Of a DNA stretch of 64,000 bases, positions 7,601 through 61,160 are shown one piece after another (the stretch's first letter is position 1; every line of letters starts with the position of its first letter). The position numbers were made by a program, and so were the translations under genes. This DNA comes from Naegleria gruberi (Eukaryota), in assembly GCA_000004985.1 (NCBI GenBank), contig GG738857.1; one strand, 5' to 3'. The notes under the pieces were generated by a model. It saw only the letters and a program-made list of their open reading frames with translations, did not search any database and was not told where the DNA came from.

Positions 7601-7617
7601 GAAAGCTTGCTGTGAAC

Positions 7618-8226
7618 NNNNNNNNNNNNNNNNNNNNNNNNNNNNNNNNNNNNNNNNNNNNNNNNNNNNNNNNNNNNNNNNNNNNNNNNNNNNNNNNNNN
7701 NNNNNNNNNNNNNNNNNNNNNNNNNNNNNNNNNNNNNNNNNNNNNNNNNNNNNNNNNNNNNNNNNNNNNNNNNNNNNNNNNNNNNNNNNNNNNNNNNNNN
7801 NNNNNNNNNNNNNNNNNNNNNNNNNNNNNNNNNNNNNNNNNNNNNNNNNNNNNNNNNNNNNNNNNNNNNNNNNNNNNNNNNNNNNNNNNNNNNNNNNNNN
7901 NNNNNNNNNNNNNNNNNNNNNNNNNNNNNNNNNNNNNNNNNNNNNNNNNNNNNNNNNNNNNNNNNNNNNNNNNNNNNNNNNNNNNNNNNNNNNNNNNNNN
8001 NNNNNNNNNNNNNNNNNNNNNNNNNNNNNNNNNNNNNNNNNNNNNNNNNNNNNNNNNNNNNNNNNNNNNNNNNNNNNNNNNNNNNNNNNNNNNNNNNNNN
8101 NNNNNNNNNNNNNNNNNNNNNNNNNNNNNNNNNNNNNNNNNNNNNNNNNNNNNNNNNNNNNNNNNNNNNNNNNNNNNNNNNNNNNNNNNNNNNNNNNNNN
8201 NNNNNNNNNNNNNNNNNNNNNNNNNN
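7618..8226. other. Assembly gap (609 N)
   Basis: Run of n characters. ORFs reported across it are artefacts. Confidence 1.
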
Positions 8227-8267
8227 TCAGCATTAATTGAATTTTTGGAACTAAATTCCTTCCAAAG

Positions 8268-9788
8268 AATGCCAAGAAGGATGAAGAAAAAGTTGAACAA
8301 GATGAAGAAGAAGATGTTGAAGAAGATGATGAACAAGAACCTGTAGAAGCTGGAGAAGAAACTGTCAAGATGGATGTTGAAGATAATGCCACCAGATGCT
8401 TGGCCTCCCTCGTCAGAATTTACTCTCAAAACCCAGTTGAACATTTGCAATATGTTTTAGAAAATATCAGCTCTGAAAACGTCTTGTACTACTTCTCTGC
8501 TATTGGTAGAATTTCAACCTTCTACAATGATGTCAAATTCATTGATGCTTACTGTGCCATTTTGAAGAAGCAATTCACTGAAGTTCTCACTTCCAAACAA
8601 CCTCTTCCAACCAATATGAGCATTGCTGTTCAAAAGATGTTAATTTCCAGACTCAAGGCCTACGTTCAACATTTGAATAGTGAAATTCCAAGTAAGATTG
8701 TTGATACTCTCGTTCAAATTTGGGATTTGAAACCACAAAAGGATGTTCAAGTTGCAATTTTGAGCACCATCTTGTTGGCTATTAAGAATGATAGAACTGA
8801 TCAACTCTACAATAAGGCCAAGAGTATTTTGGAACAAGCTACTACTCATGAATATGAAGATATTGTTCTTGCATTGGCTGGATTTGGTCCAACTAAGAAT
8901 GTTACTACCATGAGAGAAATCTTCTCCTTGAGATTGAAGACTCTTGAACATCCAACTTCCAAGATTCAAACCTCTGCATGGTCAACTGTTTCCAGCTCTG
9001 CAACCACACCTTCCTTCATTAAGAGAGTTGCTTCAGAAAGTTTCAATCCTATTGCCTTGTTCAGAAAGTACATTGTTGATGCTGTTCTCACTTTTAATCC
9101 ACAACAACAACACAATATTGCCAACGTTGCCATTGATGTCTTGCTTAAGGAAATTATTCAAACTCCAGAAGAAGCTGGTTCAATTTTACTTGACAGTATT
9201 TTGGTTCCTCTCTTGACTGAAGAAAAATACCAAAAACTCGATAGAGAAACTTACAATGCTGATATTACTTGGGATAGACCTGTTAAGGCTCGTTTGGCCC
9301 ATATTGTCAATTCTCTTTCTACAAAGGTTGCATCTACTTACTTGCTCATTTCAGACAGCAATAAGCAAACTATTCAATCAAAGATTGTTTTACCACTTGT
9401 TGAAGTTGTTAAGAAGCACGTTCAAAATCGTCTTCCATATGTCTGCATTGTTTCATCAATTAATACTAACTGGAATGATGTTGACTCTGTTGTTCAAAAC
9501 TCAATCAAGAATGTTGCCGATTTATTAAGTGATGTTGAAGAACCATTGAAGACCCTCATTTTGTCCAAGATTGTTAATCACTCACATCAAATTACTCTCA
9601 ATAGATCCAATGTCAATGTTCTCCTTGATGCAGTTGCAAAGGTTTTGAATAATGCCAGTGAATTCTCTCAAACTGAACAAATTATTGCTACAGGAATTTT
9701 GATGAGTCTTGGAACTGCTGATGACAAGACAAGAGAATTGAAGAAGATTGCCAGAAAGAGTAATGTTCTCAATTTGTTGACTGAATAA
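8268..9788 (+). CDS. C-terminal portion of an alpha-helical repeat protein (acidic linker then helical repeats). Probably the same gene as 5234..7600
   Basis: The frame is open from 8241. A candidate acceptor ttccttccaaag| lies at 8267. An acidic stretch (KDEEKVEQDEEEDVEEDDEQEP) is followed by 470 aa of helical repeats to TAA at 9786-9788. Same strand and similar composition to the upstream ORF. Confidence 0.5.
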   Translation, partial: NAKKDEEKVEQDEEEDVEEDDEQEPVEAGEETVKMDVEDNATRCLASLVRIYSQNPVEHLQYVLENISSENVLYYFSAIGRISTFYNDVKFIDAYCAILKKQFTEVLTSKQPLPTNMSIAVQKMLISRLKAYVQHLNSEIPSKIVDTLVQIWDLKPQKDVQVAILSTILLAIKNDRTDQLYNKAKSILEQATTHEYEDIVLALAGFGPTKNVTTMREIFSLRLKTLEHPTSKIQTSAWSTVSSSATTPSFIKRVASESFNPIALFRKYIVDAVLTFNPQQQHNIANVAIDVLLKEIIQTPEEAGSILLDSILVPLLTEEKYQKLDRETYNADITWDRPVKARLAHIVNSLSTKVASTYLLISDSNKQTIQSKIVLPLVEVVKKHVQNRLPYVCIVSSINTNWNDVDSVVQNSIKNVADLLSDVEEPLKTLILSKIVNHSHQITLNRSNVNVLLDAVAKVLNNASEFSQTEQIIATGILMSLGTADDKTRELKKIARKSNVLNLLTE

Positions 9789-10493: not shown

Positions 10494-12647
10494 TCACAGA
10501 TCTATCAACCAGGTTTGGTGTTTGTTTTTTTTGAGTTTTCTGTTTTCCTCTTCCAATATTTTAATTCTTTCCGAAAGTTTGTCAACATCCTCTAATATTT
10601 TAATTCGTTCCAGTAAAGAGTTCTCCTCCAATAGGTTAATTCTTTCTAATAGGTTGGTATTTTCATCAGAAAGTTTATCAACTTCCTCTGCAAGTTGAGA
10701 GTAGCTCCTTAATGGTGAGATTTTCTTCAATTCTCCAATTTCCTTTTCAATATTCAAAGTGATATCTTTGATTTCACCTTTCAAAAATTTCAAAATATTC
10801 TCAATGGTTAACTTGTGAGAATAACAATTCAATCTTTTTGATGAATCTCTTTGAATCATGCTAATAATGCTTCTAATCAATATGTTATTCACTCCTAAAT
10901 CTGGATTAATCGTTTCATTGATTAGTTTTTCAATTGCATAATGTAATTTCATTTCTCCCTCTGTTGTTGTTACAACTGTATAGAAATATTTTCCATGTCC
11001 ACTAAAATATGGATACTTGTCATTATATTTAGAGATATCTGAATCATTAACAAATCTTTCACACAATTGCAAAGGACAATTTGTTAATAATTTCAATAAA
11101 ATACATCCCAATGAAAATATATCACACGAAATGGTAATTTGTCCAACATTGTGAGCAAGTTTTTCATCATCACCACTTTTCAATAAATCATCAGAATAAT
11201 TATCATGTGAAACTTCAGGAGACATGTATGCAAACTTTCCACGAGCAATTGTAATTGAATTACCTGTCTTGATAACTCTTGATGTTTCAAAATCAATAAT
11301 TTTGTAATGATCTTGAACTTTGACAATATTTTGAGGATCTAAATCTCTGTGCAAAATGTTGTGATCATGAATTGACTGAACTGATTTCAATACTTTGATA
11401 AATATTTCAAGAATTTCAATCAACTTTTCCTTCTTAATGAATCCATTTCTATAAATTTCACTTTCATTATTTCTTGAAATGTAATTTGATAATGATTCCT
11501 CTCCAAGTTCCATCACTGAATATAAATGATTTTGAATAATTTCACAATCAAAACATTTGATCTTTCCTTCAATATCTGTTCTTTTCAATAAATTAATGGT
11601 TTCTTTTGTTGATTCTTCAGATTCCTCTGGATCATATTTTAATTTTAATGCCCTTAATGATTTGCTACTTTTGTGAAATACTTTGAATGCAACACCTTCA
11701 CCTCCATATCCTAACAATGAAATAAAATCATAATTATTTTTGAAATAATTATAGAAATAATTGAGAGCTTTGAATACTTTTGATAAATCTCCTCTCAGCT
11801 CATTATATTTACACAAGGTTTGTTTGTAATTTTCAAATGTTTGCTCATTTTCAAACCACTTGTTGGCAAAATTCATAATTTCAGTAATTTCCTGTTTTGT
11901 ATAAAATGATGTTTCGAAATTTGTTGCAACTTGTTCCACAATATTCTTCAAATCTTTCATTCTTGTTGATTGACAGGGATTATCTTCAAGATATTTGTCC
12001 AATCTGAAACAAAATAAATAATAATTGACTCTTTCTGGAAGAAGAGTTTCAGTGGATAATTCTGAATGGTTCATTCGTTTCAATATTTGGAAAATAATCA
12101 ACTTTTCAACAAATACTGGTGTATAGATAGAATTAAAATTGAATATTGTACCTTTTGGTGTTGGATTAAAGAGACTTGTTAATTCAATAGCATAATATAA
12201 ATCCTTTTCATTCATAAATATTTTGGAGTATTGTTCAATTATATTAGTTGACAGCTTTGTCTGAAGATTAATGGATTCTTCAATTGTTTTGGTTATAGAG
12301 GGTGAGAACCTTCTTGCATTTACCTTGCTAAATTTAATTAATAAATAAATAAATATACTATCTTCTTTCAATGATGAATCAGCATATTGAAGTGCCTTTC
12401 CATGTTGTTTAACAGATTCCAATACAAATTCTCTGTTTTTCCTCAATGATGAATCTGCATATTTAAAAGCATATCCATTTTGTTTGACAGATTCCAACAC
12501 AATTTCTCTATCTTTTTTCAATGATGAATCAGCATATTCAAGTGCATTTCCATTTTTTTTAACAGCCTCCAATATAATTTCTCTATCTTTTTTCAATGAT
12601 GAATCAGCATATTGAAGTTCCAATCCATTTTTTTTAACAGCATCCAA
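10494..12647 (-). CDS. Protein kinase with N-terminal DUF4116 repeats (four or more) and a C-terminal coiled coil. The 5-prime exon is probably missing from this model
   Basis: Repeats match the DUF4116 pattern (ALEYADSSLKKDREIVLESVKQNG). The kinase motifs are GYGGEGVAFKV, ALKLK, HRDLDPQN, DFE replacing DFG, and YMSPEV. The C-terminal heptads (LSERIKILEEENRKLKK) are repeated. The reading frame stays open upstream to a TAG at 12662, immediately 3-prime of a possible acceptor (aatag|GCC GAT AGG AAA TTT GTA TTG GAT = ADRKFVLD, another DUF4116 half-repeat). The first in-frame codon is TTG, not ATG. Confidence 0.8.
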   Translation of the reverse strand: MDAVKKNGLELQYADSSLKKDREIILEAVKKNGNALEYADSSLKKDREIVLESVKQNGYAFKYADSSLRKNREFVLESVKQHGKALQYADSSLKEDSIFIYLLIKFSKVNARRFSPSITKTIEESINLQTKLSTNIIEQYSKIFMNEKDLYYAIELTSLFNPTPKGTIFNFNSIYTPVFVEKLIIFQILKRMNHSELSTETLLPERVNYYLFCFRLDKYLEDNPCQSTRMKDLKNIVEQVATNFETSFYTKQEITEIMNFANKWFENEQTFENYKQTLCKYNELRGDLSKVFKALNYFYNYFKNNYDFISLLGYGGEGVAFKVFHKSSKSLRALKLKYDPEESEESTKETINLLKRTDIEGKIKCFDCEIIQNHLYSVMELGEESLSNYISRNNESEIYRNGFIKKEKLIEILEIFIKVLKSVQSIHDHNILHRDLDPQNIVKVQDHYKIIDFETSRVIKTGNSITIARGKFAYMSPEVSHDNYSDDLLKSGDDEKLAHNVGQITISCDIFSLGCILLKLLTNCPLQLCERFVNDSDISKYNDKYPYFSGHGKYFYTVVTTTEGEMKLHYAIEKLINETINPDLGVNNILIRSIISMIQRDSSKRLNCYSHKLTIENILKFLKGEIKDITLNIEKEIGELKKISPLRSYSQLAEEVDKLSDENTNLLERINLLEENSLLERIKILEDVDKLSERIKILEEENRKLKKNKHQTWLIDL

Positions 12648-18133: not shown

Positions 18134-18491
18134 CTAGCGGAATTTACAATTTACAACAACAAGTACAATTGTGCATACAAAGGTACATGCAACAATAAAT
18201 ACGAAAGCTAGAGTTAAAAAGATTAGCAAAGCCAATCTTCCAAAATCGTTTTCAGTATTTGACAAGGAGAGGCCTAGAACATTGTAAGGTGTAGGAATAG
18301 GAAATAACTTTATCAACACATCCAATACTGATACATGTGCTTCTCTTTAGGGCACATTCAAATGCCAAACAATCATCGCGTCTTGTACCAGTCAAGGATA
18401 AGGCACTCATAACGATACCAACTATAAAACCAATGGATATGATAGAGAAACAAGCACCAATAGTAGCCAAGAGCAATAGACCTTTATTCAT
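18134..18491 (-). pseudogene. Paralog of the 9840..10388 small Cys-rich membrane protein. Its two conserved halves lie in different reading frames (apparent 1-bp frameshift, or a very unusual splice)
   Basis: Frame A (18491..18252) encodes TM plus SLTGTRRDDCLAFECALKRSTCISIGCVDK. Frame B (18325..18134) encodes FPIPTPYNV...NDFGRLALLIFLTLAFVFIV (C-terminal TM). Both halves align with the 9840 gene. No clean GT-AG intron links the frames. Confidence 0.4.
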
Positions 18492-18742
18492 CTTGTGTGG
18501 ATTGATTTTTTTGTATGGATGATGATTGTGAATAGAGGCGAGTTATGTGTGTGTGGATTGTTTATTGTTGTGGAGGTACTTCCACGCGTTTGTGGATCGA
18601 CGGAAATAACTGATCGAAATTCTATTTTTAAATTCTATTAGAAATGACTGGGTGATCGGCCGTTCTCGTGTATAACTCCCATGAAAACATTGTATACAAT
18701 CAAATGCATATGGATGAAAAGGATTGATGTTTACTATTATAT

Positions 18743-19654
18743 TTAAATCATGATCATTATCAAGACCATCACCAAAACTAAATAATTCGAAACCTTTACA
18801 ATATCCACACTACTCACTGATATCTTTGTAAAGGTAGAAAACGAGCTAGGATATCCAAACGCAATCACCTTACATGCAGTACAACTTGTCTTGTGATTAT
18901 TCATATAAATTGAAAAATCAACAACATCACCAATGATGGCATGAACTCTATTTCCAATAACTGCATCGAATTGTTCATCATATCCCAATGGAAGATAGGT
19001 TGCAAGTGGAAGGTTTTCCTTGATCCAATCCTCAAAGATAGTTCCAGAATAAGCTCCCACAATGGTGCCATTCTTATTGAACGAGTAAACATTTGAACTA
19101 TATCCAAGAGTTTCGTTATCCTTATTGTTTCGAATAAATCCGTATGAAGTGGAGCCATATGGACATGTTTGAAAGCTTACTTGAGTGGCTCTATCTGATG
19201 AATAAGAAGTGTCAGCAACAACAACATCACATCTTCCATCATTTACGGCATTTGACAAGGATGTAAAAAATCCATCGGTTGTGTTTATGAGAACGAGTGA
19301 ATTTTCCAATGACATTGAATATTGAGTATTGATTGCCTTGGTCAATTCTTCAGCAACCAACTTGTAGGCACTCGTCCAAGGTTCCATTGATTCCATTTGA
19401 TAACAATTCTTCAGTTGACTCATTCCTTTGAATGGATTCACACTCGGAAACACAACATTTGATGAACATTTAGGAACGTTGAAGAGAAGAATATCGAATA
19501 TTTTGCTTTGGAATGTAGATTCTTGAACAATGTTTTGAATGGCAGCATTAATTGCTTGTGTGAAGAGAGCTTGTTGACTATTTGTCAAGTCAATTGTCAT
19601 GAAAATGATCAACACTGCAAGAAAATTACTAGCAATAGATGAAGGAGCAAACAT
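18743..19654 (-). CDS. Secreted, probably GPI-anchored protein with a bacterial-type solute-binding protein family 3 (PBP type II; iGluR ligand-binding-domain fold) domain
   Basis: N-terminal signal peptide (MFAPSSIASNFLAVLIIFMTI). SBP_bac_3-like core (CDVVVADTSYSSDRATQVSFQTCPYGSTSYGFI). The C-terminus has Ser-rich omega-site candidates (SVSSVDIVKVS) followed by a terminal hydrophobic tail (NYLVLVMVLIMIMI-stop), typical of a GPI signal. Confidence 0.65.
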   Translation of the reverse strand: MFAPSSIASNFLAVLIIFMTIDLTNSQQALFTQAINAAIQNIVQESTFQSKIFDILLFNVPKCSSNVVFPSVNPFKGMSQLKNCYQMESMEPWTSAYKLVAEELTKAINTQYSMSLENSLVLINTTDGFFTSLSNAVNDGRCDVVVADTSYSSDRATQVSFQTCPYGSTSYGFIRNNKDNETLGYSSNVYSFNKNGTIVGAYSGTIFEDWIKENLPLATYLPLGYDEQFDAVIGNRVHAIIGDVVDFSIYMNNHKTSCTACKVIAFGYPSSFSTFTKISVSSVDIVKVSNYLVLVMVLIMIMI

Positions 19655-19776
19655 TGAGATGTTTTTTATGTGAATGTTGTGTGTGATTTTGTTTGTTGAT
19701 TTGGCCTTTCAAAAGTCTTTTCAAAAACTTTAAGTGTCACATTACAAAGATGCGTCTCTGTGTCTCACATTTACAA

Positions 19777-19826
19777 NNNNNNNNNNNNNNNNNNNNNNNN
19801 NNNNNNNNNNNNNNNNNNNNNNNNNN
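19777..19826. other. Assembly gap (50 N)
   Basis: n-run. Confidence 1.
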
Positions 19827-20501
19827 GCCATCAAGGTGATTCTCTTGCATTTTCTTATTTTCCTTTTCACACTTTCAATATGGAACTAATATCCATCATC
19901 AAGTAAATAGGCAGCAAATCGAGTAATTCACTCGGAAAGGATCATCCATAGAGATTAACAGTGTGACTTGGTATGAGTTTAAATTCACCATAGTTGTTGA
20001 TGAGTAAGTATTGAATGTTCCGAAAGACTTTCCTTTTTTCGATGGTTTGGTAGTACGTGGACCGACGGTTCTACCTTCCTTTTTGTTGGCATTTGGTTTG
20101 TTATTCTTCAAAGGATTCTTGTTTTTGAAAATAAATTTTAAATCAAATAATAATTATTTTAAAAAAGAAAAAATATTCAAAAAATGATGAAGCAGCTAAA
20201 CTACCTTTTCTCATCATCGGAATGTTGAGAACTTTATCATGATTCCGTATCATCAAGTAGTTTTCTTTTTGATGGAAATAATAGTGTGAGAGATTACTTG
20301 ACACTGAAGAGGTGGAGTTAATAGCAAAATAATGGGTCTACCAAACTTCATATAAATATCTAGTGAGAAGGTGGACAAGACTTGGGAATTGTCAATTACT
20401 GATTTTACAACGACTTGGTTACGATAATCATCCTTTTGTAATTCCCAAGTGACGACTCTGTTGGTTTCCAAGTAATTACTCGTCAACTTCCACAAAAAAA
20501 A

Positions 20502-23500
20502 ATGTTGACAGGGAGCAGAGACTCTTCATCAGTAGCTGCCGTTGACCAACAAGATCCACGAAGCCAAAAACAAGATATGACTTTCGAGTACACATATTTG
20601 ATACAAGCACTATTGAATCAAAATCCAAAACTGAATAATTCTGAGTTTATTCAAGAGTTCAAAAAAAAGTTAGAGTCTTTTAAAGAAGATATTCAATCAG
20701 CCTACGAATTCACCGTTTCATTTAGTAACTATTTAAAGAAGGGCAAGGATGGTACGTTGCACGAGTTGAAATCTTTCAAATTCTTGAAAGTGGCAAGTCA
20801 CAAGCAACACTCATTTTTTCCAAAGAGGTTTTATGTAAAGGCAGTTGGTATTAATAATGATAGCACAACTGTATACCAATTACCAAAACTTATTGAGAGC
20901 AACAGAGTGTTTAGAAAATTTGACTTGATGGATTTCATCAAAGTTCAGTTTTCTGAGAACAGCAAAGTTTTGGACATGATAACAATTCTTGACAAGAAAT
21001 TCCAAGTTGTTGGTGGATCACAAAGCCAAATCAAAAAGGGATCTATTTACTACTATGACATCTCGAAACTGGAAACTGGAAAAACAGCCAATAGCTTGAT
21101 GGATAAACTTGGAAAGTTCGATAATGACTTTTTCAAGAAGATATCAAGACAAAGTTTAAATTTTACTCCTACTGTACGCATATGTACTCTTAAAAAGGAT
21201 GATATTGTTGAAGAGGACGATACATATGCAGGGAATGGGTCCATATTATCGGATGGAATAGGCATGATATCTTATTCTTTTGCTGCTGAGCACTTGAAGA
21301 ATGAAAAAGAAAACTTACCAACAGCATTCCAAGTAAGAATTGCTGGTTTTAAGGGGATGTTAACAGTGTATCCTGATGACATGCTAAAAAGAAAAGGAGT
21401 TAAAAAGAAAGTGATTTTGAGAAAAAGTATGAAGAAATTTGAGTGTAACAAAGATGACAAATATGATCTAGAAATAGTGGCATCCACGAAGGAAGAGCCA
21501 TCTCCCGCCTATTTTAACACACAAGTCTTTCTTTTGCTTTATTCACGCCGCATGAATTTCTTCTCTCAAAAGAAAATTGAGAATTATGATTATGATGTGA
21601 TGAAAATACTGAAATCCCATTACGGTGATGTTTTACCAAGTATTGATAGAGCGTCCTTTCACTCAAATCCTTTTTTGATAGATTTGTTGAGAAGTACACT
21701 AGCAAAGAAAAGAGATAATGGTAACATGTTGGTTACAGAAGGTATGACATGTTATGGTTTGCTGGATGAAACTAAAGAACTTAAAGAAAAGGAAGTTTTT
21801 GTAATGTTGGGAAACAAACATACCAAGTACGCTAAACCAAATACCAAATTTTTAAAGAGTGGGACAAAGGTGTTAGTTTTCAGATATCCAGTATTGAATA
21901 TAAATGAGATAAAGATGCTGACTGCAAAAGAACCTATCAATAATTTACAATTGAGTACAAATGATTGTGCAGTTGTTTTTTCAAGTGTATGTGCTGCATC
22001 TGATATTTCAGGTGACCTTGATGGTGACAAGTATGTTGTTATTTGGGATGAATCATTATCCCTGATAGGAGATAATATTACAAAAAAAATTGAATTGAAA
22101 GAGAAAAAAAAGGAAGATAAAGAGGAGCAAACAGAGTATGAAGAAATTATACCAAAAACGAAAGTTACACCAAAAACACTTTCAGAAGCGTTCACTCATT
22201 TAATAATAGCGCAACAGTACGTCGGAAAGATAGTAACGACCTGGCAAAATACAATAATGAATGGAAGATACACATATCTAACAGAATCTAGAAAACTAGC
22301 CAAACAATTCCAAATTGCAATGGACTTTCCTAAAACTGGGATACTTCCAAACATTGATTTGCTGCACTCGCCTCCAAACTCTCCCCTAAAGACTGTAAGA
22401 AAGAGAATAGATTTTATGTACAATTTTTTGACTCCAATATCTGACAATTCTAAAGTTGCTAAAATACCACCAGATATCAAGCCTATTTTTGATAAATATA
22501 TAGCAGAGATGGAACATTGGAAGTTGGTTTTGGGTATAGATGAAGTAGGAGTGATTACAAGAAAGAGTGTGTTTGAACCTATACAAGAGAAGTTTTCTAA
22601 ACAATTAGAAGGAAAGTCAGTTCCAATGAGTTTGGGGAGTTTTTCATTGCTGATGAAACCATCTGGAAAGGCTAAAAAATCAAAATACTCCAGTTTTAAA
22701 ACAATACTGGAGGGAAATTTCAGAGAATTTGTCGAACAATATTTGAAAAGAATTTTTAATAATGGGAAGGAGGAATTGAAGTATTTACAAAATTCCCTTA
22801 AAGAAATTACAAACAACCAAATTCTTTGGAAATACATTGCTCAAAAGCCAAATCTATACCTCATTCTTACTTACCTTATAGATAGAAATAATACAATGAT
22901 GAAATATGAACAGTTTGCTACAGATGAGTTGGTGTGGTCTTTTATCAAATATTGTATTTTAAAAGAATACCTTGTTCACGAAGATGAAAATCAGGCTGTT
23001 ACTTACGAAAAGGAAGAGCCAAACCTGGAATACCTCCTTGTTGAATTTAAAAAAGATAACCATTTCACTACAGAAATAGATAAGTTGATTGGTTTTATTA
23101 CTGATATTCCTAAAATGGATATATGGTATCCGAGAATTAAGGAAGTTTGTGAAAAAGTTAATGTAGAATACATTCCATTTTCAGAATTACTTCCATTACC
23201 TAATGAAAAAATGCTCGGAAAAGGAATACATGGAGAAGTGTTTCCAATGATGTTCCGATCAAAAAGAGTTGCTGTTAAAAAAGTTGAGTTTATATATCCA
23301 GATACTATTACTGGGTTTTTAGACGAGTTGGACCTTTTGGCAAAACTTAGAGGCCATGAAAATATAGCTGAATTGTATGCTGTTTCTCTTGATGGATACA
23401 ATGGGTTTTTAATCATGGAATATTGTGATTATGGATTATGGAATCACTATTTCAATAAGCAAAATAAGCAAAAACCAAAGATTAATTTTGACAAACTGCA

Positions 23501-24056
23501 ATTCCTTTCATTACTCAATGATATAGCTAACGGAATGGAGTGGATGCACAAAAAAAATGTGTTACACAGAGATCTAACAGTCCATAATATTGTATTGCTA
23601 GAATATAAAGGAGAACAAGGACCATTCCTCAAAGCCAAGTTGATTGATTTCCATTTAAGTGTTTCCAAAGACTGGTCAGATGCTGAAGAGAAACTGAAAT
23701 TCCTACCTCTTGAAAAATTAATCAAATGTTCTCCTGAAGCCATTAATGACAAATCAAATTATCATTTCCCAAGTGACGTTTTCATGTTTGGGAATATACT
23801 ATGGGAAATATTGCACCGAGAGGAAATATATCATCGGCTCAAATTTAAACATGCCATTCAATTGATTTTACAGGGAAAACTAAAACCTGTAACTGTAAAA
23901 ATTGATTTAGAAGTTTTGAAAGTTTTGGAAAACTGTTGGAACCTTGATCCAGACCAAAGGCCTACATTTGAGAGCATAGTTAAGGAGCTTTCTTCTCTGC
24001 TTGAACATGAAAAGAAGAAACGAATGAGATACAACCATTTCAATGCCTTAAAGTAA
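20502..24056 (+). CDS. RNA-dependent RNA polymerase (eukaryotic cellular RDR/QDE-1 family) fused to a C-terminal protein-kinase-like (TKL-like, possibly pseudokinase) domain. 1184 aa, single exon
   Basis: RdRP hallmarks are FQVRIAGFKGMLTVYPD, VLVFRYPVLNINEIKMLTAKEP, and the catalytic SGDLDGDKYVVIWDE (DbDGD motif). The C-terminus carries GKGIHGEV, VAVKK, HRDLTVHNIVL, DFH (not DFG), SPE (not APE), DVFMFGNILWE, and DPDQRPTF. The true start may be M at about 20577 (MTFEYTYL). Confidence 0.85.
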   Translation: MLTGSRDSSSVAAVDQQDPRSQKQDMTFEYTYLIQALLNQNPKLNNSEFIQEFKKKLESFKEDIQSAYEFTVSFSNYLKKGKDGTLHELKSFKFLKVASHKQHSFFPKRFYVKAVGINNDSTTVYQLPKLIESNRVFRKFDLMDFIKVQFSENSKVLDMITILDKKFQVVGGSQSQIKKGSIYYYDISKLETGKTANSLMDKLGKFDNDFFKKISRQSLNFTPTVRICTLKKDDIVEEDDTYAGNGSILSDGIGMISYSFAAEHLKNEKENLPTAFQVRIAGFKGMLTVYPDDMLKRKGVKKKVILRKSMKKFECNKDDKYDLEIVASTKEEPSPAYFNTQVFLLLYSRRMNFFSQKKIENYDYDVMKILKSHYGDVLPSIDRASFHSNPFLIDLLRSTLAKKRDNGNMLVTEGMTCYGLLDETKELKEKEVFVMLGNKHTKYAKPNTKFLKSGTKVLVFRYPVLNINEIKMLTAKEPINNLQLSTNDCAVVFSSVCAASDISGDLDGDKYVVIWDESLSLIGDNITKKIELKEKKKEDKEEQTEYEEIIPKTKVTPKTLSEAFTHLIIAQQYVGKIVTTWQNTIMNGRYTYLTESRKLAKQFQIAMDFPKTGILPNIDLLHSPPNSPLKTVRKRIDFMYNFLTPISDNSKVAKIPPDIKPIFDKYIAEMEHWKLVLGIDEVGVITRKSVFEPIQEKFSKQLEGKSVPMSLGSFSLLMKPSGKAKKSKYSSFKTILEGNFREFVEQYLKRIFNNGKEELKYLQNSLKEITNNQILWKYIAQKPNLYLILTYLIDRNNTMMKYEQFATDELVWSFIKYCILKEYLVHEDENQAVTYEKEEPNLEYLLVEFKKDNHFTTEIDKLIGFITDIPKMDIWYPRIKEVCEKVNVEYIPFSELLPLPNEKMLGKGIHGEVFPMMFRSKRVAVKKVEFIYPDTITGFLDELDLLAKLRGHENIAELYAVSLDGYNGFLIMEYCDYGLWNHYFNKQNKQKPKINFDKLQFLSLLNDIANGMEWMHKKNVLHRDLTVHNIVLLEYKGEQGPFLKAKLIDFHLSVSKDWSDAEEKLKFLPLEKLIKCSPEAINDKSNYHFPSDVFMFGNILWEILHREEIYHRLKFKHAIQLILQGKLKPVTVKIDLEVLKVLENCWNLDPDQRPTFESIVKELSSLLEHEKKKRMRYNHFNALK

Positions 24057-30014: not shown

Positions 30015-33014
30015 ATGTCATCCAAAACGAACCCCATTACTAGGCATATGCCATCATTATTAGCACACTATTTATTGTTATTATTCTTCTTTATTTTAAC
30101 ACTTTCGAATAGTTTAGTCTTGGGCGAAAGTTATAATGTTTATTCTTGGGGATTAAATATGGATGGTCAGACCGGAATGGACCTTCCAACAACACCCGGA
30201 AGCTTTGCAACTCCAACTTTAAATCAACACGTTTCTTCCTTGCTAGCGAATCCAAATTCTCTATACGAAAGTGTTTACAACATTGCGACGAAACCTTCAG
30301 ACATTACAATCTCGTTAAAAACCATCATTCCAGGATATAAATACAATCTCTATTGGTTCACATTCACGAATACCACCTCATCCGAAACTACTGACCAATT
30401 ATTTTCATGTGGAGATAATACAGACTATTGTTCTGGACTAAAGTCTCCCAAGTTTACAACAGAATTACAAGTAGTTTATGAATATTCAGCAACTTCTAAT
30501 AACAGATATTTGGATGGATCACTTTCTGGTAAGAAACTTGAAAGTGTTGATTGTATGGTTTCGTGTATTGCTTGTACGAAAGATGGTTTAGTCTTTGTTA
30601 GAGCTAGTTCACAAAAATGGGCATGGTATGCAGTTACTATTGATTCTGGATTGGTAGATGCCCAAGGAATCACAGTTTCGAATAAGTGCAAAAAGGTTTC
30701 GGTTGGTGGAACTTCCACCTCTGCTACCTATTTTGTAATGACAGATTCTGGACATTTATTCTCATGGGGAGAGTTTAACAGTGCAATGAGAGGATATGAT
30801 GATGCAGAATATTCAGGAACTGCTCCTCATTTAATTTCTACTGTTTTTGGAGCTTTCGAATTTGCAGTTCTTAAGGATTATGATATTCCAGTAAATGATG
30901 GGTTGGGAGTTTTGGGATATTTGAACGATACTGGATTATACTTGATTGGAAAAAATACGTATGGCCTCTTTGGAATTACAGTCGATGATTTGTTTTATTT
31001 AACTCCTTATTTGGCAATTGATAGTCAAGTTATTGGTTCCAAATTGAAAAAGATTGTTTTTGGTTATGCCAACGCTTTGGTTTTGGCAGAATCTGGAAAG
31101 GTTTATGCATTTGGAGGAAATGATTATGGTCAAGTCAATCCAAGTGGTTACGGCCCTTATCAGGAAAGTGTAGCTGAAATTAGTTCAGTTTCTGGATCTG
31201 TTGATTGTTTCTGCTCTGCTCATGCATGTGGTTGTAGGCAAACAGGTGGAAGTTTCAAAACTTGGGGATCTGATAAGGAGAGAGGATGGACAGGAGCTGC
31301 TTTGTTCGATTACATTAACTTTCCCGAGTCAAGCTCAACATTTTCCTTATTAACTAGGGGAGGATTTGCCATTTCGAATACAAATAAGCTCTATGCATGG
31401 GGTGATAATACGAATGGATACATGTGCTTGGGAGAAAAGTCAATTCAGATGACACCTAAATTACTTTTCAGCGCAAATTATCAATTGAAACAATTGGTGA
31501 GTGGAGAGGCCTGTTCTTATTCTCTCGGTGAGAGTGGAGGAGTTTCCATTGTAAACATGTGGGGAAATTGCACGAATGGATTGGGATTTGGAATTGCACC
31601 AAGTGGAGGATACTTGTTCCATAATTTAACAACTTTGGATAATAGTTTGCATTTACAAGGGTTGAAATATTCTCAATTGAGTATGTACAACCTGCATGCT
31701 GGTTTCCTATCGAGCTCTACACAACAGAAACCTTACATGATTGGTTATGGTGATAGTATGAGATTGGGAACTACTAATTTGAATGATTTGGATGTGTTAA
31801 CAAGTGTTGACACTACTGTTTTGGTAAATGAGGATATTGTTCAAGTTTCTGCTGGTTATGATCATACTGTCTATCTTACAAGAGGTGGTTACTTGATGGG
31901 TTCAGGTGACAATTCAAAAAGACAATTGGATCCTTTGGATGTATCTTATTCTGAATTGTTGAACATTAGTACAACAGTAATTCAGGAAGCAGGAGAACGA
32001 ATTGTTAAGGTAGTTGCAGGAAAACAGACAACATTTGTCCTGACAGATGCTGGTCATATTTGGGGAAAGGGATCAAATGAACAACAACAAATAAGCAAAA
32101 ATGGTCCTTCTCCAATTACTGAATTTCAACAACTTGATCCAACAACTAAAAATTTTACCAAATTGGCTGTAGGAACCTATCCAATCGCGTGTGAAGCTGG
32201 CGGGTTTGCATACAGATTCTCTGGGGACAATAAGGGTCCATGGCAATATTTCTATACCTATATGGAGTCTTGCTCTGATGTGTTTGCCAAAGATGACATT
32301 TATTACTTTATCACAAATGTTGGAAAGGTTTATGCAATTGGATCAAATTATTATAATCAAATCTCTACTGTCTATGGATTGGATGAAGTTACCCTTACTG
32401 CAAATATGATCTTCTCACCTGTAAAACTTGGTGGAATGCCTCGAATGATTGCTGTTGGAAATGGTTTCACAAGCATTGGTGTTGAAGTTCCTTCATATAC
32501 TTGTAATGGAAAGAATTTCTCAGATCCAACTGTGTGTAACGGAAAAGGTTATTGCATTTCCCAAAATCAGTGCCAATGTGAAAACTCCTATTGGACTGGA
32601 TCTGATTGCAGCACTCCAGTTTGTATTCCTGTGGAAGGAGGAGCAATTTGTAGTGGAAGAGGAGTGTGTATTGCACCAGATACCTGCAAATGCAATAGTG
32701 GATATTTTGGATCCAGATGTGAAACATATTATTGTTTTGGAATATTGCCAGATCCTTATGGAATGGCAACTACTAAACCTTGTAACAATAGAGGAAGTTG
32801 TAAAGGACCAGATACATGTGAATGTACCAGCAGTGAATATTATGGAGATGAGTGCCAATTTAAGAGGTGTTTCAGTGGAAATGGTGCATTCTTAAAGAGG
32901 AATTCATTAGCAGATCGCTTGTGTAATAAGATTAATTCACAAATATTGAATATTACCTATCCTATTCCCACTGGTGATATGTCTGGTACTCCTAATATTC
33001 CGAATAGAGGGTAA
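30015..33014 (+). CDS. Secreted protein with N-terminal RCC1-like beta-propeller repeats and C-terminal tenascin-type EGF repeats (999 aa)
   Basis: Signal peptide (LLAHYLLLLFFFILTLSNSLVLG). At least 9 repeats of the RCC1 kind (YSWGLNMDGQTG, VYAFGGNDYGQVN, LYAWGDNTNGYMCLG, YLMGSGDNSKRQLD, HIWGKGSNEQQQI, VYAIGSNYYNQI). The C-terminal Cys-rich repeats read CNGKGYCISQNQCQCENSYWTGSDC, CSGRGVCIAPDTCKCNSGYFGSRC, and CNNRGSCKGPDTCECTSSEYYGDEC. Confidence 0.8.
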   Translation: MSSKTNPITRHMPSLLAHYLLLLFFFILTLSNSLVLGESYNVYSWGLNMDGQTGMDLPTTPGSFATPTLNQHVSSLLANPNSLYESVYNIATKPSDITISLKTIIPGYKYNLYWFTFTNTTSSETTDQLFSCGDNTDYCSGLKSPKFTTELQVVYEYSATSNNRYLDGSLSGKKLESVDCMVSCIACTKDGLVFVRASSQKWAWYAVTIDSGLVDAQGITVSNKCKKVSVGGTSTSATYFVMTDSGHLFSWGEFNSAMRGYDDAEYSGTAPHLISTVFGAFEFAVLKDYDIPVNDGLGVLGYLNDTGLYLIGKNTYGLFGITVDDLFYLTPYLAIDSQVIGSKLKKIVFGYANALVLAESGKVYAFGGNDYGQVNPSGYGPYQESVAEISSVSGSVDCFCSAHACGCRQTGGSFKTWGSDKERGWTGAALFDYINFPESSSTFSLLTRGGFAISNTNKLYAWGDNTNGYMCLGEKSIQMTPKLLFSANYQLKQLVSGEACSYSLGESGGVSIVNMWGNCTNGLGFGIAPSGGYLFHNLTTLDNSLHLQGLKYSQLSMYNLHAGFLSSSTQQKPYMIGYGDSMRLGTTNLNDLDVLTSVDTTVLVNEDIVQVSAGYDHTVYLTRGGYLMGSGDNSKRQLDPLDVSYSELLNISTTVIQEAGERIVKVVAGKQTTFVLTDAGHIWGKGSNEQQQISKNGPSPITEFQQLDPTTKNFTKLAVGTYPIACEAGGFAYRFSGDNKGPWQYFYTYMESCSDVFAKDDIYYFITNVGKVYAIGSNYYNQISTVYGLDEVTLTANMIFSPVKLGGMPRMIAVGNGFTSIGVEVPSYTCNGKNFSDPTVCNGKGYCISQNQCQCENSYWTGSDCSTPVCIPVEGGAICSGRGVCIAPDTCKCNSGYFGSRCETYYCFGILPDPYGMATTKPCNNRGSCKGPDTCECTSSEYYGDECQFKRCFSGNGAFLKRNSLADRLCNKINSQILNITYPIPTGDMSGTPNIPNRG

Positions 33015-41100: not shown

Positions 41101-41823
41101 AACACACGAACAGAATTTCCACAAAATTTGTTAAATTCCAAACACCAATTTTCAATCAATGACAATGGCGAAACAATTAGAAATGGTTTCCTTGAACTTT
41201 CCTTGTCAGTACTTTCCATCCAATAACAGAAAAAACTAATCACCTCCAAAGTCTATATTATTACACGATCGTATTCACTCCAAAATTTTGATTACTTACT
41301 TTACCAAGACCCTATTTAAATAGTTGATCAATTAGTTTAAATTTCCAATTTAGAATAAGAAGAAACATACCATATCGTCACCTAATATTCCACCATGCGT
41401 CTTGTTATCCAACAATAAACTCTTCAACCAAGAAACAGCTTGCCACTGATGATTCTTCAATTTACACGAATTCAACAAGTATTTTGATGAAGGATTCGGC
41501 AACTGATCAACATCTCTCATCTCATTCAAACACTCACAATCAATTTGCAATGATTTAATTCTATTCAAAAATACATTAAAATCCAGCGTTTTGTTTTTTG
41601 GTTTTTGCAATTTTAATTTACTCAAATCCTTCTTCTTCTTTTTATTCCGATGATCATGATTGTGGTCATCATCATCATGATCGGAATCTGAAAGAGGCGG
41701 AGGTGAGTCATCTTCATCTTCTATATCTGAAAATTCTTCTTCCGATTGATGATCAACTCGTGGTTGTCTTGTTTCTTCTTCATCTTCATCAACAATGATG
41801 GAATCTTTTTTACGTTTGGACAT
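38130..41823 (-). CDS. ALC1/CHD1L-like chromatin remodeler: SNF2-family ATPase, then a TARG1-like macro domain, then a BRCT-like C-terminus. Five exons: 41823..41371, 41311..41300, 41252..39094, 39052..38695, 38645..38130
   Basis: Exon 1 carries the Q motif HQWQAVSWL...GGILGDDM|GTATGT. The 12-nt micro-exon GGTCTTGGTAAA (GLGK) lies between atttaaatag| and |GTAAGT. Exon 3 reads TLEVISFFCYWM...PFLIVSPLSLIENW...DEAHRLKN and the helicase-C motifs ([43 protein letters not shown]). A 41-nt intron GTAAGT...TTTCAACAG leads to the macro exon (YIVNVIAQHYEKSKGHGPI...VHMPRIGFGIQGFDW, compare TARG1 SMPRIGCGLDRLQW). A 49-nt intron GTTTGT...TTATTAG leads to the BRCT-like exon (KIYLFGMENKNNRKLKGSIALNGGII...TVVTAQSILEMI). 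All splice phases are consistent. Confidence 0.8.
41300..41311 (-). other. 12-nt micro-exon encoding G-L-G-K (the Walker-A/motif I lysine) of the SNF2 ATPase
   Basis: GGTCTTGGTAAA is flanked by acceptor ...atttaaatAG and donor GTAAGTaatc. Upstream exon 1 ends GGILGDDM. The downstream exon starts TLEVISFF. Together these reconstitute GGILGDDMGLGKTLEVISF. Confidence 0.65.
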
Positions 41824-57063: not shown

Positions 57064-57065
57064 CN

Positions 57066-57114
57066 NNNNNNNNNNNNNNNNNNNNNNNNNNNNNNNNNNN
57101 NNNNNNNNNNNNNN
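57066..57114. other. Assembly gap (49 N)
   Basis: n-run. Confidence 1.
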
Positions 57115-60929: not shown

Positions 60930-61160
60930 GAAGATACTGAGCCATCAATATGAAACTCTCACAGATTGTTCTCCTCATCAAGAGGAGTGTATTCATATTT
61001 GATACTTGTATGATATTTTGTAAAATGAATGAGATGGAGTATATTCTATATGTTGAAATGTGACAATTTGACAGATTGTTATTATTATCATACTGAATTC
61101 AACTCTAATAGACTTAAATTGATACCATATGTATAAAAGTGTGATTAAATGTATCTGGTA
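60930..61160 (+). repeat. Repeat W, copy 1. It recurs at 63640..63840 (spacing about 2.7 kb), which suggests a higher-order tandem unit
   Basis: Shared blocks are ctcacagattgttct.c.catcaagag...attcatat.tgata.ttgt...aatgaatgag.tggagt and aaattgataccatatgta.aa.agtgtgatta. Confidence 0.5.

What the first reader, a model, noticed from the sequence alone, without database searches (positions are those of the whole stretch)
18743..19654. GPI-anchored eukaryotic protein built on a bacterial-type family-3 solute-binding domain
Signal peptide, then an SBP_bac_3-like amino-acid-binding fold (CDVVVADTSYSSDRATQVSFQTCPYGSTSYGFI), then an omega-site plus hydrophobic tail. In eukaryotes this fold usually occurs inside iGluR or class-C GPCR ectodomains. 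A stand-alone GPI-tethered version suggests a surface nutrient or ligand sensor, or a horizontally acquired periplasmic binding protein.
Basis: partly seen in the sequence, partly recalled or inferred. Interest (0 to 1): 0.5.

Follow-up and report, generated by a model that had tools for sequence, protein, structure and literature searches.

The report
Amoeba surface amino-acid-binding protein, rearranged
This is a real, already annotated but unstudied gene of the amoeba Naegleria gruberi. It encodes a secreted, probably lipid-anchored (GPI) surface protein built on a bacterial-type amino-acid-binding "Venus flytrap" domain whose last two helices have moved to the front of the chain, and it belongs to an amoeba family that also includes receptor kinases.

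Summary
Window 18743-19654 (minus strand) is one uninterrupted 303-aa ORF, identical to the annotated N. gruberi "predicted protein" XP_002679641.1 / D2V913 (NAEGRDRAFT_47636).

- **Layout:** N-terminal hydrophobic signal, a two-lobed family-3 solute-binding (SBP_bac_3) domain, then a small-residue site, a short spacer and an uncharged 16-residue tail that ends the protein.
- **Domain evidence:** the single-sequence Pfam hit is borderline (26.3 vs 26.4 bits). The family profile hits bacterial amino-acid SBPs at E 5e-21, and an AlphaFold model (pLDDT 91.5) matches them over about 215 columns.
- **Binding residues:** those that hold the alpha-carboxylate and alpha-amino groups of an amino acid (S150, R155, G204/T205, D243) are present and conserved across about 80 relatives.
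- **No channel:** no channel exon follows the gene, so it is not an iGluR.
- **New point:** the domain is circularly permuted. The two N-terminal helices correspond to the C-terminal helices of canonical SBPs; restoring the canonical order raises the score against E. coli GlnBP from 47.5 to 63.5 bits.
- **Family:** it occurs in Naegleria, Willaertia and Amoebozoa, with GPI-type, N-terminal-anchor and TM-plus-kinase forms.

GPI anchoring, the ligand and the signalling partner are inferred, not shown. The closest published analogue is the GPI-anchored type-I flytrap EhVFT of Entamoeba (2026).

The parts
18743..19654 (-). Complete single-exon gene (303 codons plus TAA) = N. gruberi NAEGRDRAFT_47636 / XP_002679641.1 / D2V913
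   Evidence: ORF list. Exact-sequence look-up.
19577..19654 (-). Residues 1-26: predicted signal peptide (MFAPSSIASNFLAVLIIFMTIDLTNS, likely cleaved before Q27)
   Evidence: Hydropathy peak at residues 6-24. N-terminal hydrophobic segments recur in most full-length relatives. Not run through SignalP.
19481..19576 (-). Residues 27-58: two helices (28-44, 46-56) with the family motif F.QAI[ND]AA...[ST]F; homologous to the C-terminal helices of canonical family-3 SBPs (the circular permutation)
   Evidence: AF2 DSSP, pLDDT about 98. hhalign against bacterial C-terminal helices beats 299/300 (local) and 300/300 (global) column shuffles. The best hit on a full SBD profile falls on columns 213-240 of 243. 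Re-permutation tests.
19418..19480 (-). Residues 59-79: linker carrying the conserved VP.C motif (C63) and invariant P70; joins the relocated helices to strand beta-1
   Evidence: Family alignment: C63 in 66/68, P70 in 68/68.
19157..19417 (-). Residues 80-166: lobe 1 of the flytrap, including C84, Y112, sequon N124-T-T, G.C142D, S150, invariant R155 and C164
   Evidence: AF2 secondary structure. hhalign to GlnBP maps S150 to T70 and R155 to R75. Conservation: R155 in 77/78.
18872..19156 (-). Residues 167-261: lobe 2, including the G204-T205 carboxylate-binding turn, H238, D243 (alpha-amino contact) and the C258-x2-C261 pair
   Evidence: hhalign to GlnBP maps G204/T205 to G117/T118 and D243 to D157. 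Conservation: T/S205 in 76/79, D/E243 in 70/77.
18818..18871 (-). Residues 262-279: return strand(s) into lobe 1 (equivalent to 'YGIAFPKG' of GlnBP). The canonical helices that normally follow are absent here. S279 is the best omega-site candidate.
   Evidence: DSSP E262-277. Rule-based omega search.
18746..18817 (-). Residues 280-303: GPI-type C-terminal signal (omega+1/+2 V-S, spacer SVDIVK, uncharged tail VSNYLVLVMVLIMIMI running to the last residue)
   Evidence: The same kind of tail occurs in 55 relatives.
18978..18990 (-). Site of a 13-bp frameshifting deletion seen in a near-identical environmental allele (contigs L001/L002, run ERR1078381). It truncates the protein to 246 aa (P0001).

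Best explanation
The gene encodes a secretory-pathway, cysteine-stabilised and probably N-glycosylated surface protein of Naegleria gruberi. Its whole mature part is one bacterial-type family-3 solute-binding (type II periplasmic-binding / Venus-flytrap) domain.

The domain is circularly permuted. The two helices that end a canonical SBP sit at the N-terminus here. The chain ends right after the last lobe-1 strand, where a GPI-attachment-type signal follows.

Most likely mechanism (inferred):
1. [quoted passage not shown]
2. It closes around a free alpha-amino acid or close analogue. R155, S150 and the G204-T205 turn hold the carboxylate, and D243 holds the amino group.
3. With no cytoplasmic part, the liganded protein must act through a transmembrane partner as a sensor for food or bacteria-derived amino acids. 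In relatives the same permuted ectodomain is fused to a TM helix and a protein kinase.

Shown: gene, organism, fold, homology, residue conservation, family architecture and sequence-level evidence for permutation. Inferred: GPI anchoring, glycosylation and disulfides, ligand class, signalling through a partner.

My rough confidence by step: identity and fold 0.95, permutation 0.8, GPI anchoring 0.7, amino-acid-type ligand 0.6, sensor acting through a partner 0.35.
For: Gene and organism.

Homology and fold:
- 116 relatives, 56 at E <= 1e-10.
- Profile against PDB: AncCDT-1 5e-21, Enterococcus Glu-SBP 5e-14, Trp-SBP 9e2b 6e-12, GlnBP 9e-8; eukaryotic NMDA ligand-binding domains only 7e-4.
- AF2 pLDDT 91.5, pTM 0.83.
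- Foldseek top 50 are all amino-acid SBPs, enzymes and sensors built on that fold, or iGluR ligand-binding cores.

Binding residues:
- hhalign to GlnBP maps S150/R155/G204-T205/D243 onto T70/R75/G117-T118/D157.
- Family conservation: R 77/78, D/E 70/77, G 62/79, T/S 76/79.

Secretory features:
- All six Cys of the target lie at positions conserved above 90%.
- Three sequons are present, and N124-x-T falls in a column where N is the commonest residue (43/83).
- N-terminal hydrophobic signal and C-terminal uncharged tail recur in the family: 55 tails, 48 with an omega-like triplet.

Permutation:
- Two extra N-terminal helices and no C-terminal helices in the model.
- The N-terminal profile aligns to bacterial C-terminal helices in register.
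- The re-permuted HMM beats native order on 13/13 bacterial SBD units and a reversed-segment control on 12/13. It reaches the end of the model in 7/13 against 0/13 for the control.
- GlnBP: 47.5 bits native, 63.5 re-permuted, 47.8 control.
- With the re-permuted profile, 13 of 17 PDB hits align to within about 3-31 residues of the chain C-terminus.
- More distant relatives carry a plain 'LN..L....G.....KWF' SBP end-motif at their N-terminus.

Sensor role: P0059, P0086 and P0112 are this ectodomain plus TM plus PK_Tyr_Ser-Thr kinase.
Against: - The single-sequence Pfam score is 0.1 bit below the gathering threshold.
- No dedicated GPI or signal-peptide predictor could be run. The presence of GPI transamidase in N. 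gruberi was not checked.
- The hydrophobic tail could serve as a short membrane anchor instead.
- I could not superpose coordinates, so the spatial equivalence of the N-terminal helices rests on sequence and secondary-structure evidence only.
- No ligand, expression or localisation data exist for any family member (no papers found).
- A near-identical environmental allele carries a 13-bp frameshift, so this particular paralogue may be dispensable.
- No partner receptor was identified. The receptor-kinase relatives come from other organisms (Cavostelium, metagenomes).
- In the only studied analogue (EhVFT), ligand binding could not be demonstrated.
Confidence: 0.6

Rival explanations
1. Nutrient-capture receptor rather than sensor. 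The GPI-anchored flytrap binds amino acids at the surface and delivers them by endocytosis or pinocytosis, in the manner of the GPI-anchored folate receptor or the trypanosome transferrin receptor. No signalling partner is involved.
For: The same architecture and conserved binding residues support it. Amoebae feed by endocytosis. The multigene family with fast divergence (mean identity 32%) and a dispensable allele fits nutrient or surface-coat genes. The folate-receptor and transferrin-receptor analogies are from general knowledge.
Against: Relatives fuse the same ectodomain to protein kinases, which points to signalling. One-to-one capture of abundant small solutes by a surface protein is an inefficient uptake route compared with membrane transporters.
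Confidence: 0.2
2. Membrane protein anchored by its C-terminal hydrophobic segment (a type-I protein with essentially no cytoplasmic tail), not GPI-anchored.
For: Some relatives have tails of 20-25 uncharged residues. Others use clear TM anchors: an N-terminal signal-anchor in P0068/P0074 and a TM plus kinase in P0059/P0086/P0112. The AF2 model draws residues 283-302 as a helix.
Against: In the target the strongly hydrophobic run is only 13-16 residues and ends the protein, with no basic stop-transfer residues. Small-residue triplets lie 2-11 residues upstream in 48 of 55 tails. That is the classical GPI signal layout. The comparable Entamoeba VFT tail was shown experimentally to be a GPI signal (PMC12965686).
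Confidence: 0.15
3. The fold has been recruited for something other than small-ligand binding: an enzyme like cyclohexadienyl dehydratase, or a variable surface-coat or adhesion protein in which the cleft is vestigial.
For: Top PDB profile hits include the cyclohexadienyl-dehydratase lineage (AncCDT-1/3/5, PheC). The family is large and divergent, and one allele is frameshifted.
Against: AncCDT-1 is described in its PDB entry title as an amino-acid-binding ancestor. The alpha-carboxylate Arg is conserved in 77/78 members, and the amino-group Asp/Glu and the G-T/S turn are strongly conserved across members that share only 22-50% identity. That is the signature of a maintained amino-acid site.
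Confidence: 0.08
4. A recent bacterial transfer or bacterial contamination of the assembly, or a fragment of an ionotropic glutamate receptor gene.
For: The nearest non-family relatives are bacterial multi-SBD ABC-transporter fusions. The fold is shared with iGluR ligand-binding cores.
Against: - GC 0.355 and GC3 0.31 match the neighbouring Naegleria genes.
- The gene is flanked by typical Naegleria genes: Ank-BTB, RdRP-kinase, DUF4116-kinase.
- The best bacterial identity is about 25-30% over about 100 residues, whereas orthologues and paralogues exist in N. lovaniensis, N. fowleri, Willaertia and Amoebozoa.
- It carries eukaryote-type signal, cysteines and GPI tail.
- The binding domain is contiguous, with no internal TM segments and no Lig_chan hit.
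Confidence: 0.02

Closest known systems
Bacterial polar-amino-acid solute-binding proteins of family 3 (Pfam PF00497; e.g. E. coli GlnBP/HisJ, GlnPQ substrate-binding domains, AncCDT-1/AncQR)
   Same: Same two-lobed type II fold (Foldseek E about 1e-14, about 215 aligned columns). Significant profile homology. Same residues for the alpha-carboxylate and alpha-amino groups.
   Different: - Eukaryotic host.
- Circularly permuted chain order, with the C-terminal helices moved to the N-terminus.
- Six conserved cysteines and N-glycosylation sequons.
- A GPI-type tail instead of a free periplasmic or lipoprotein form.
- No ABC transporter partner is evident.
EhVFT (CL6EHI_096680), the GPI-anchored stand-alone Venus-flytrap protein of Entamoeba histolytica (PLoS Pathog 2026, PMC12965686)
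   Same: An amoeba; signal peptide plus a single flytrap domain plus a C-terminal GPI signal; no TM or cytoplasmic domain. It was proposed as an environmental receptor, and knock-down reduces motility and phagocytosis.
   Different: EhVFT is a type-I PBP (LIVBP / ANF-receptor / class-C GPCR type). The Naegleria protein is type II (SBP_bac_3 / iGluR type) and permuted. The two are analogues, not members of one family. The EhVFT ligand is also unknown.
Ligand-binding core (S1S2) of ionotropic glutamate receptors, including bacterial GluR0 and rotifer AvGluR1
   Same: Same fold class and the same Arg / Ser-Thr / Asp-Glu logic for amino-acid recognition. Structural hits at E about 1e-11 to 1e-10.
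   Different: In iGluRs the domain is split by the channel TM segments. Here it is contiguous and there is no channel. Sequence similarity is weaker than to bacterial SBPs (NMDA 7e-4, GluR0 5.5e-6, against 5e-14 for a natural SBP).
Receptor kinases with the same permuted SBP ectodomain (P0112 from Cavostelium apophysatum; P0059 and P0086 from metagenomes)
   Same: Homologous ectodomain with the SBP end-helix motif at the N-terminus. The chain leaves the domain right after the last lobe-1 strand.
   Different: They continue into a Ser/Pro-rich stalk, one TM helix and a PK_Tyr_Ser-Thr kinase, where the Naegleria protein has a GPI-type tail. They retain the conserved cysteines only in part (my reading of the sequences).

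Membership tests
SBP_bac_3 (Pfam PF00497), bacterial extracellular solute-binding proteins family 3 | Match to the family HMM at or above the curated gathering score | tested here: inconclusive
   26.3 bits against a cut-off of 26.4, E 7e-6, residues 129-181 only. 13 of 25 family members match at E <= 0.01. The family profile against PDB SBPs gives E 5e-21.
SBP_bac_3 (Pfam PF00497) | Two-lobed type II periplasmic-binding-protein fold | tested here: met
   AF2 model pLDDT 91.5. Foldseek top hits are amino-acid SBPs: E 2e-14 to 2e-10, probability 1.00, about 210-230 columns.
SBP_bac_3 (Pfam PF00497) | Amino-acid backbone-binding residues (Ser/Thr and Arg in lobe 1, G-T/S turn and Asp in lobe 2) | tested here: met
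   S150, R155, G204-T205 and D243 align to GlnBP T70, R75, G117-T118 and D157. They are conserved in the family. The GlnBP residue roles are from my memory of the 1WDN literature.
SBP_bac_3 (Pfam PF00497) | Canonical chain order ending in two lobe-1 helices | tested here: not met
   No helices follow the last strand, and two homologous helices lie at the N-terminus. It is a circularly permuted homologue, not a canonical member.
SBP_bac_3 (Pfam PF00497) | Works with an ABC importer, TRAP system or bacterial sensor in the periplasm | tested here: not met
   The host is the eukaryote N. gruberi. The Pfam-scanned ORFs of the 64-kb window include no transporter gene.
Ionotropic glutamate receptors (Lig_chan PF00060 plus PF10613) | Binding domain interrupted by, and followed by, channel transmembrane segments | tested here: not met
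   The only hydrophobic segments are residues 6-24 and 288-303. There is no Lig_chan or PF10613 hit even at E <= 10. A stop codon follows the tail, and the next gene is separate. The annotated protein is the same 303 aa.
GPI-anchored proteins | N-terminal ER signal peptide | tested here: inconclusive
   The hydrophobic core FLAVLIIFMTI and small residues at -1/-3 (T-N-S|Q) fit a signal peptide (and reading of the sequence). The feature recurs across the family. SignalP is not available here.
GPI-anchored proteins | C-terminal signal: small omega and omega+2 residues, a 5-10 residue spacer, and a hydrophobic tail reaching the C-terminus with no cytoplasmic residues | tested here: met
   S279-V-S281, spacer 282-287, uncharged 16-residue tail to residue 303. 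55 relatives have such tails, 48 with omega-like triplets. This is a rule-based script only, not NetGPI or big-PI.
GPI-anchored proteins | Actual GPI attachment (PI-PLC release, anchor mass spectrometry) and GPI transamidase in the organism | not testable with these tools
Literature searches for the Naegleria GPI machinery found nothing usable.
Type-I flytrap receptors (ANF_receptor / LIVBP; class-C GPCR ectodomains, EhVFT) | Type I PBP fold and sequence family | tested here: not met
   There is no ANF_receptor or Peripla_BP hit. All structural and profile neighbours are type II family-3 SBPs.
Amoebal permuted SBP family (unnamed; Naegleria / Willaertia / Amoebozoa clade found here) | N-terminal F.QAI[DN]AA helix pair, VP.C linker, cysteines at 63/84/142/164/258/261, invariant P70, Y112 and R155, and a chain that ends after the last lobe-1 strand | tested here: met
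   Alignment A2 and the hmmalign census. The closest relative is N. lovaniensis XP_044550082, 50% identity, E 1.6e-71.

The most novel reading that the evidence does not exclude
The whole eukaryotic clade descends from an out-of-register piece of a bacterial tandem substrate-binding-domain gene (GlnPQ-like multi-SBD ABC importers). The piece ran from the end helices of one domain to the last strand of the next. That produced a circularly permuted amino-acid flytrap, which amoebae then wired to the cell surface in three ways: GPI anchor, N-terminal anchor, and TM plus kinase. In Naegleria, including the pathogen N. fowleri, the GPI-anchored forms would be co-receptors that report bacterial or host-derived amino acids to a transmembrane kinase and steer chemotaxis or phagocytosis.
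Probability: 0.2. Interest if true: 0.75.

Novelty: new variant of a known kind. Interest (0 to 1): 0.55.

Why it matters
Stand-alone, lipid-anchored flytrap receptors were shown in an amoeba only in 2026 (Entamoeba EhVFT, type-I fold). This gene shows that free-living heteroloboseans carry a multigene family of the other flytrap type, the same fold class as glutamate-receptor ligand-binding cores. These include relatives of the brain-eating amoeba N. fowleri.

- **Testable ligand hypothesis:** the amino-acid-binding residues are intact, so a concrete ligand class can be tested.
- **Protein evolution:** the circular permutation is a clean natural example of permutation of a periplasmic binding protein. 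It marks the clade, explains why standard domain models barely detect it, and suggests an origin from tandem bacterial domains.
- **Signalling link:** receptor-kinase relatives with the same ectodomain connect the family to signalling.
- **Practical use:** if the proteins are abundant on the surface, they are candidate sensors of prey or host cues and possible diagnostic antigens.

All functional points remain predictions.

Tried and rejected
- **Word-index homology search.** With the single protein it found only the frameshifted environmental copy. With the family alignment it found only 3 proteins. The exhaustive phmmer search was needed.
- **Plasmids.** tblastn against plasmids gave no match.
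- **Annotated neighbourhood.** Exact-product look-ups of the target, of four neighbouring ORFs and of P0123 all found nothing on record, so I could not read the annotated neighbourhood. The identity of the target was settled by the cluster look-up instead.
- **Weak first permutation tests.** A 36-column HMM of the N-terminal helices alone gave no significant hmmsearch hit on bacterial SBDs; profile-profile and re-permutation tests were needed. The native-order HMM against 'out-of-register' bacterial units gained almost nothing. I attribute this to the poorly conserved first half of lobe 1 breaking the local alignment.
- **Rejected readings.** iGluR fragment, recent HGT or contamination, and class-C GPCR-type fold (see rivals and membership tests).
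- **Literature.** No paper on this family or on the gene identifiers. Nothing usable on the Naegleria GPI machinery.
Full report
**What is in the sequence.** Window 18743-19654 holds, on the minus strand, one ATG-to-TAA ORF of 303 codons. The protein has only two hydrophobic stretches, residues 6-24 and 288-303. It has exactly six cysteines and three N-x-S/T sequons, and its GC (0.355) and GC3 (0.31) match neighbouring genes.

**Organism and annotation.** The window is Naegleria gruberi. A neighbouring SNF2 ORF (39090-41249, minus) is 100% identical over its full length to an N. gruberi protein, against 64% and 60% for N. lovaniensis and N. fowleri. The other neighbours are typical of that genome: Ank-BTB, RdRP-kinase, DUF4116-kinase and RCC1-EGF. 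An exact-sequence look-up shows the ORF product is already deposited as EFC46897.1 / XP_002679641.1 / UniProt D2V913, 'predicted protein', NAEGRDRAFT_47636, 303 aa. The single-exon model is therefore the accepted one. No paper mentions it.

**Is it really a family-3 solute-binding domain?** Taken alone the protein is borderline.
- Pfam SBP_bac_3 scores 26.3 bits against a cut-off of 26.4 and covers only residues 129-181.
- NCBIfam TIGR01096 gives E 3.5e-6.
- phmmer against PDB gives E about 0.02.

Homologues settle the question.
- An exhaustive phmmer search of 1.84 billion representatives gives 116 hits, 56 at E <= 1e-10.
- Named ones are 'hypothetical' proteins of N. lovaniensis (closest: XP_044550082, 50% identity), N. 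fowleri, N. gruberi and Willaertia magna. Others come from the amoebozoans Cavostelium and Mastigella, and many are environmental sequences. UniRef auto-names several 'Solute-binding protein family 3/N-terminal domain-containing protein'.
- Bacterial multi-domain GlnPQ-like proteins appear at E 4e-8 to 5e-4.
- A 25-sequence family profile hits solved bacterial amino-acid SBPs at E 5e-21 (AncCDT-1), 5e-14 (Enterococcus glutamate SBP), 6e-12 (Trp-SBP 9e2b) and 9e-8 (GlnBP). Bacterial GluR0 scores 5.5e-6 and eukaryotic NMDA-receptor cores 7e-4.
- An AlphaFold2 model built on that alignment has mean pLDDT 91.5 and pTM 0.83. All of its top 50 Foldseek PDB matches are amino-acid SBPs, enzymes or sensors built on that fold, or iGluR ligand-binding cores. 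Both lobes are covered over about 210-230 columns.

| Target residue | GlnBP residue |
|---|---|
| S150 | T70 |
| R155 | R75 |
| G204-T205 | G117-T118 |
| D243 | D157 |

This is. From my knowledge of the 1WDN structure, these residues hold the alpha-carboxylate and alpha-ammonium of the bound amino acid.

Across about 80 relatives that share only 22-50% identity, the site is strongly conserved:
- R155 in 77/78.
- D/E243 in 70/77.
- G204 in 62/79.
- T/S205 in 76/79.
- Position 150 is T/N/S in 57/80.

A maintained amino-acid-type site is therefore the best reading. The side-chain pocket was not analysed.

**Secretory and anchoring features.**
- The six cysteines (63, 84, 142, 164, 258, 261) are each conserved above 90%.
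- The sequon at N124 lies in a column where N is the commonest residue (43/83).
- Most full-length members start with a hydrophobic signal.
- 55 members or fragments end in an uncharged hydrophobic tail with 0-4 trailing residues (median length 20). 48 of them have a small-residue triplet 2-11 residues upstream.
- In the target this reads S279-V-S281, spacer SVDIVK, tail VSNYLVLVMVLIMIMI, stop.

This is the classical layout of a GPI-attachment signal, but it was checked only with my own rules. No dedicated predictor, no experiment and no check of the Naegleria GPI machinery was possible.

**Not an iGluR.** The binding domain is contiguous. No Lig_chan or PF10613 hit appears even at E <= 10. 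The tail is followed by TAA and about 250 bp of intergenic sequence. Then comes a separate small gene with its own ATG (18134-18491, probably two exons, a small double-hydrophobic cysteine-rich protein). Beyond that lies a plus-strand Ank-BTB gene.

**An unreported feature: circular permutation.**
- The model shows two confident helices (28-44 and 46-56, pLDDT about 98) before strand beta-1. After the last lobe-1 strand (262-277) the chain goes straight to the anchor signal. Canonical family-3 SBPs end instead with two lobe-1 helices, '[29 protein letters not shown]' in GlnBP.
- The family N-terminal motif F.QAI[DN]AA...[ST][FW] resembles the bacterial end motif LN.F...L..DGT......W. More distant relatives carry an almost canonical end motif at their N-terminus. 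Examples are P0068 'LILALNAGLAETMASGEWERTYAKWF', P0086 'LNQVLNLAIYQLWTNGEIEQIYSTWFG' and P0112 'LTSVLNAAIDDMWSDGDIDAIYSEWF'.

Tests of the permutation:
- The N-terminal profile (65 sequences) against 19 bacterial end-helix segments scores 13.7 local (1 of 300 column shuffles as high) and 12.4 global (0 of 300), in the expected register.
- Against a full 243-column bacterial SBD profile, its single best local hit lands on columns 213-240, the end helices (hhalign P 0.02 on its own).
- A family HMM with the N-terminal segment moved to the C-terminus scores higher than the native order on 13/13 bacterial SBD units (mean +3.5 bits). It scores higher than a control with the segment reversed on 12/13. 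Its alignment reaches the model end in 7/13, against 0/13 for the control.
- On GlnBP the scores are 47.5 bits native (residues 51-168), 63.5 re-permuted (51-220 of 226) and 47.8 control.
- Searched against PDB, the re-permuted profile aligns with 13 of 17 hits to within about 3-31 residues of the chain C-terminus. One example is AncQR 58-229 of 233, with 'seeftqaidaavaelvedsefkealln' over 'SELLEKINKALEEMKKDGTYDKIYEK'. The native profile stopped at chain positions of about 165-214.

I could not superpose coordinates, and a short HMM of the segment alone was not significant. I therefore rate the permutation well supported (about 0.8) but not proven. It explains why standard models see only the middle of the domain.

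A tandem array of SBDs, as in the bacterial proteins that are the nearest non-family hits, is the textbook precursor for such a permutation. However, those multi-domain proteins also rank high simply because their domain scores add up. That origin is a hypothesis.

**Family architectures.** The same permuted ectodomain occurs with:
- a GPI-type tail (Naegleria, Willaertia and many environmental sequences);
- an N-terminal signal-anchor and no tail (P0068, P0074);
- a Ser/Pro stalk, one TM helix and a PK_Tyr_Ser-Thr kinase (P0059 and P0086 from metagenomes, P0112 from Cavostelium).

The kinase fusions are the main argument that the domain is used for sensing.

**How it most likely works.**
- *Shown:* a eukaryotic secretory-type protein consisting of one permuted amino-acid-SBP domain with a conserved backbone-binding site and a GPI-type C-terminal signal.
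- *Inferred:* it is GPI-anchored on the cell surface, binds a free amino acid or close analogue by flytrap closure and, lacking any cytoplasmic part, signals through a transmembrane partner. In principle this resembles bacterial SBPs docking on chemoreceptors, or GPI-anchored co-receptors docking on receptor kinases.

Alternatives are endocytic nutrient capture, anchoring by the tail as a short TM segment, or loss of ligand binding in favour of a coat or enzyme role.

**Evidence that this paralogue may be dispensable.** A near-identical environmental allele (run ERR1078381, assembled independently in ENA and Logan) carries one non-synonymous and one synonymous change. It also has a 13-bp deletion that frameshifts after residue about 222. 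This fits a large, fast-evolving surface family.

**Comparison with what is known.** The closest published system is EhVFT of Entamoeba histolytica. It is a stand-alone flytrap shown experimentally to be GPI-anchored and needed for normal motility and phagocytosis (PMC12965686). EhVFT has the type-I (LIVBP / ANF-receptor) fold and its ligand is unknown. It is an analogue, not a relative. Family-3 SBP genes of bacterial or archaeal origin have been reported in anaerobic fungi as recent transfers (PMC11291939). The Naegleria family is different: old, eukaryote-adapted and permuted.

**Verdict.** The gene is annotated but uncharacterised. The added value here is the family, the conserved ligand site, the permutation and the receptor-kinase link. 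I rate it a new variant of a known kind, of moderate interest.

Noticed in passing
window 20502-24056 (+): A 1184-aa uninterrupted ORF fuses an RNA-dependent RNA polymerase domain (PF05183, E 2.5e-68, residues 121-622) to a C-terminal Tyr/Ser-Thr-type protein kinase domain (residues 902-1163). This is an unusual pairing. The exact product is not on record as a called gene, so the public model may differ.
   Followed up: partly
L001 1-1491 / L002 (ENA ERZ929261, run ERR1078381) versus window 18500-19930: An environmental metagenome holds a contig about 99% identical to N. gruberi. It carries the target gene with a 13-bp frameshifting deletion (product P0001, 246 aa), a 17-bp indel in the downstream intergenic region, and sequence that fills the window's N-gap at 19777-19826.
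   Followed up: partly
window 18134-18491 (-): Directly downstream of the target lies a small separate gene, probably two exons joined across a GT..AG intron of about 35 nt near 18266-18300. It would encode a protein of about 110 aa with an N-terminal hydrophobic segment, a short Cys-rich middle and a C-terminal hydrophobic segment. It has no Pfam match.
   Followed up: partly
window 10494-12647 (-): ORF combining DUF4116 repeats (E 1.8e-39) with a protein kinase domain. DUF4116 has no known function.
   Followed up: no
window 30015-33014 (+): 999-aa ORF with an RCC1-like beta-propeller followed by EGF-like domains. This mixes a usually intracellular module with extracellular-type modules.
   Followed up: no
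window 39090-41249 (-), extending upstream: CHD1L-like SNF2 helicase. The annotated N. gruberi protein (P0123, 1001 aa) also carries a Macro domain (PF01661). I used it to identify the organism.
   Followed up: yes
P0004 (N. gruberi XP_002676195, NAEGRDRAFT_68554); N. lovaniensis C9374_002535 and C9374_002538: One N. gruberi paralogue is an internal tandem duplication (462 aa, about one and a half domains). Two N. lovaniensis paralogues lie three locus tags apart. The family therefore grows by local duplication. This 64-kb window has no second copy (tblastn).
   Followed up: partly
window 7618-8226, 19777-19826, 57065-57114, 61285-61516, 62700-62749: Runs of N (assembly gaps). ORFs listed across 7550-8450 on both strands are artefacts of the gap.
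   Followed up: no
window 62001-64000: Strong strand asymmetry at the right end of the window (GC skew +0.415, AT skew -0.248) with low GC just before it (0.26 at 60001-62000). This may be repeat or low-complexity sequence near gaps.
   Followed up: no
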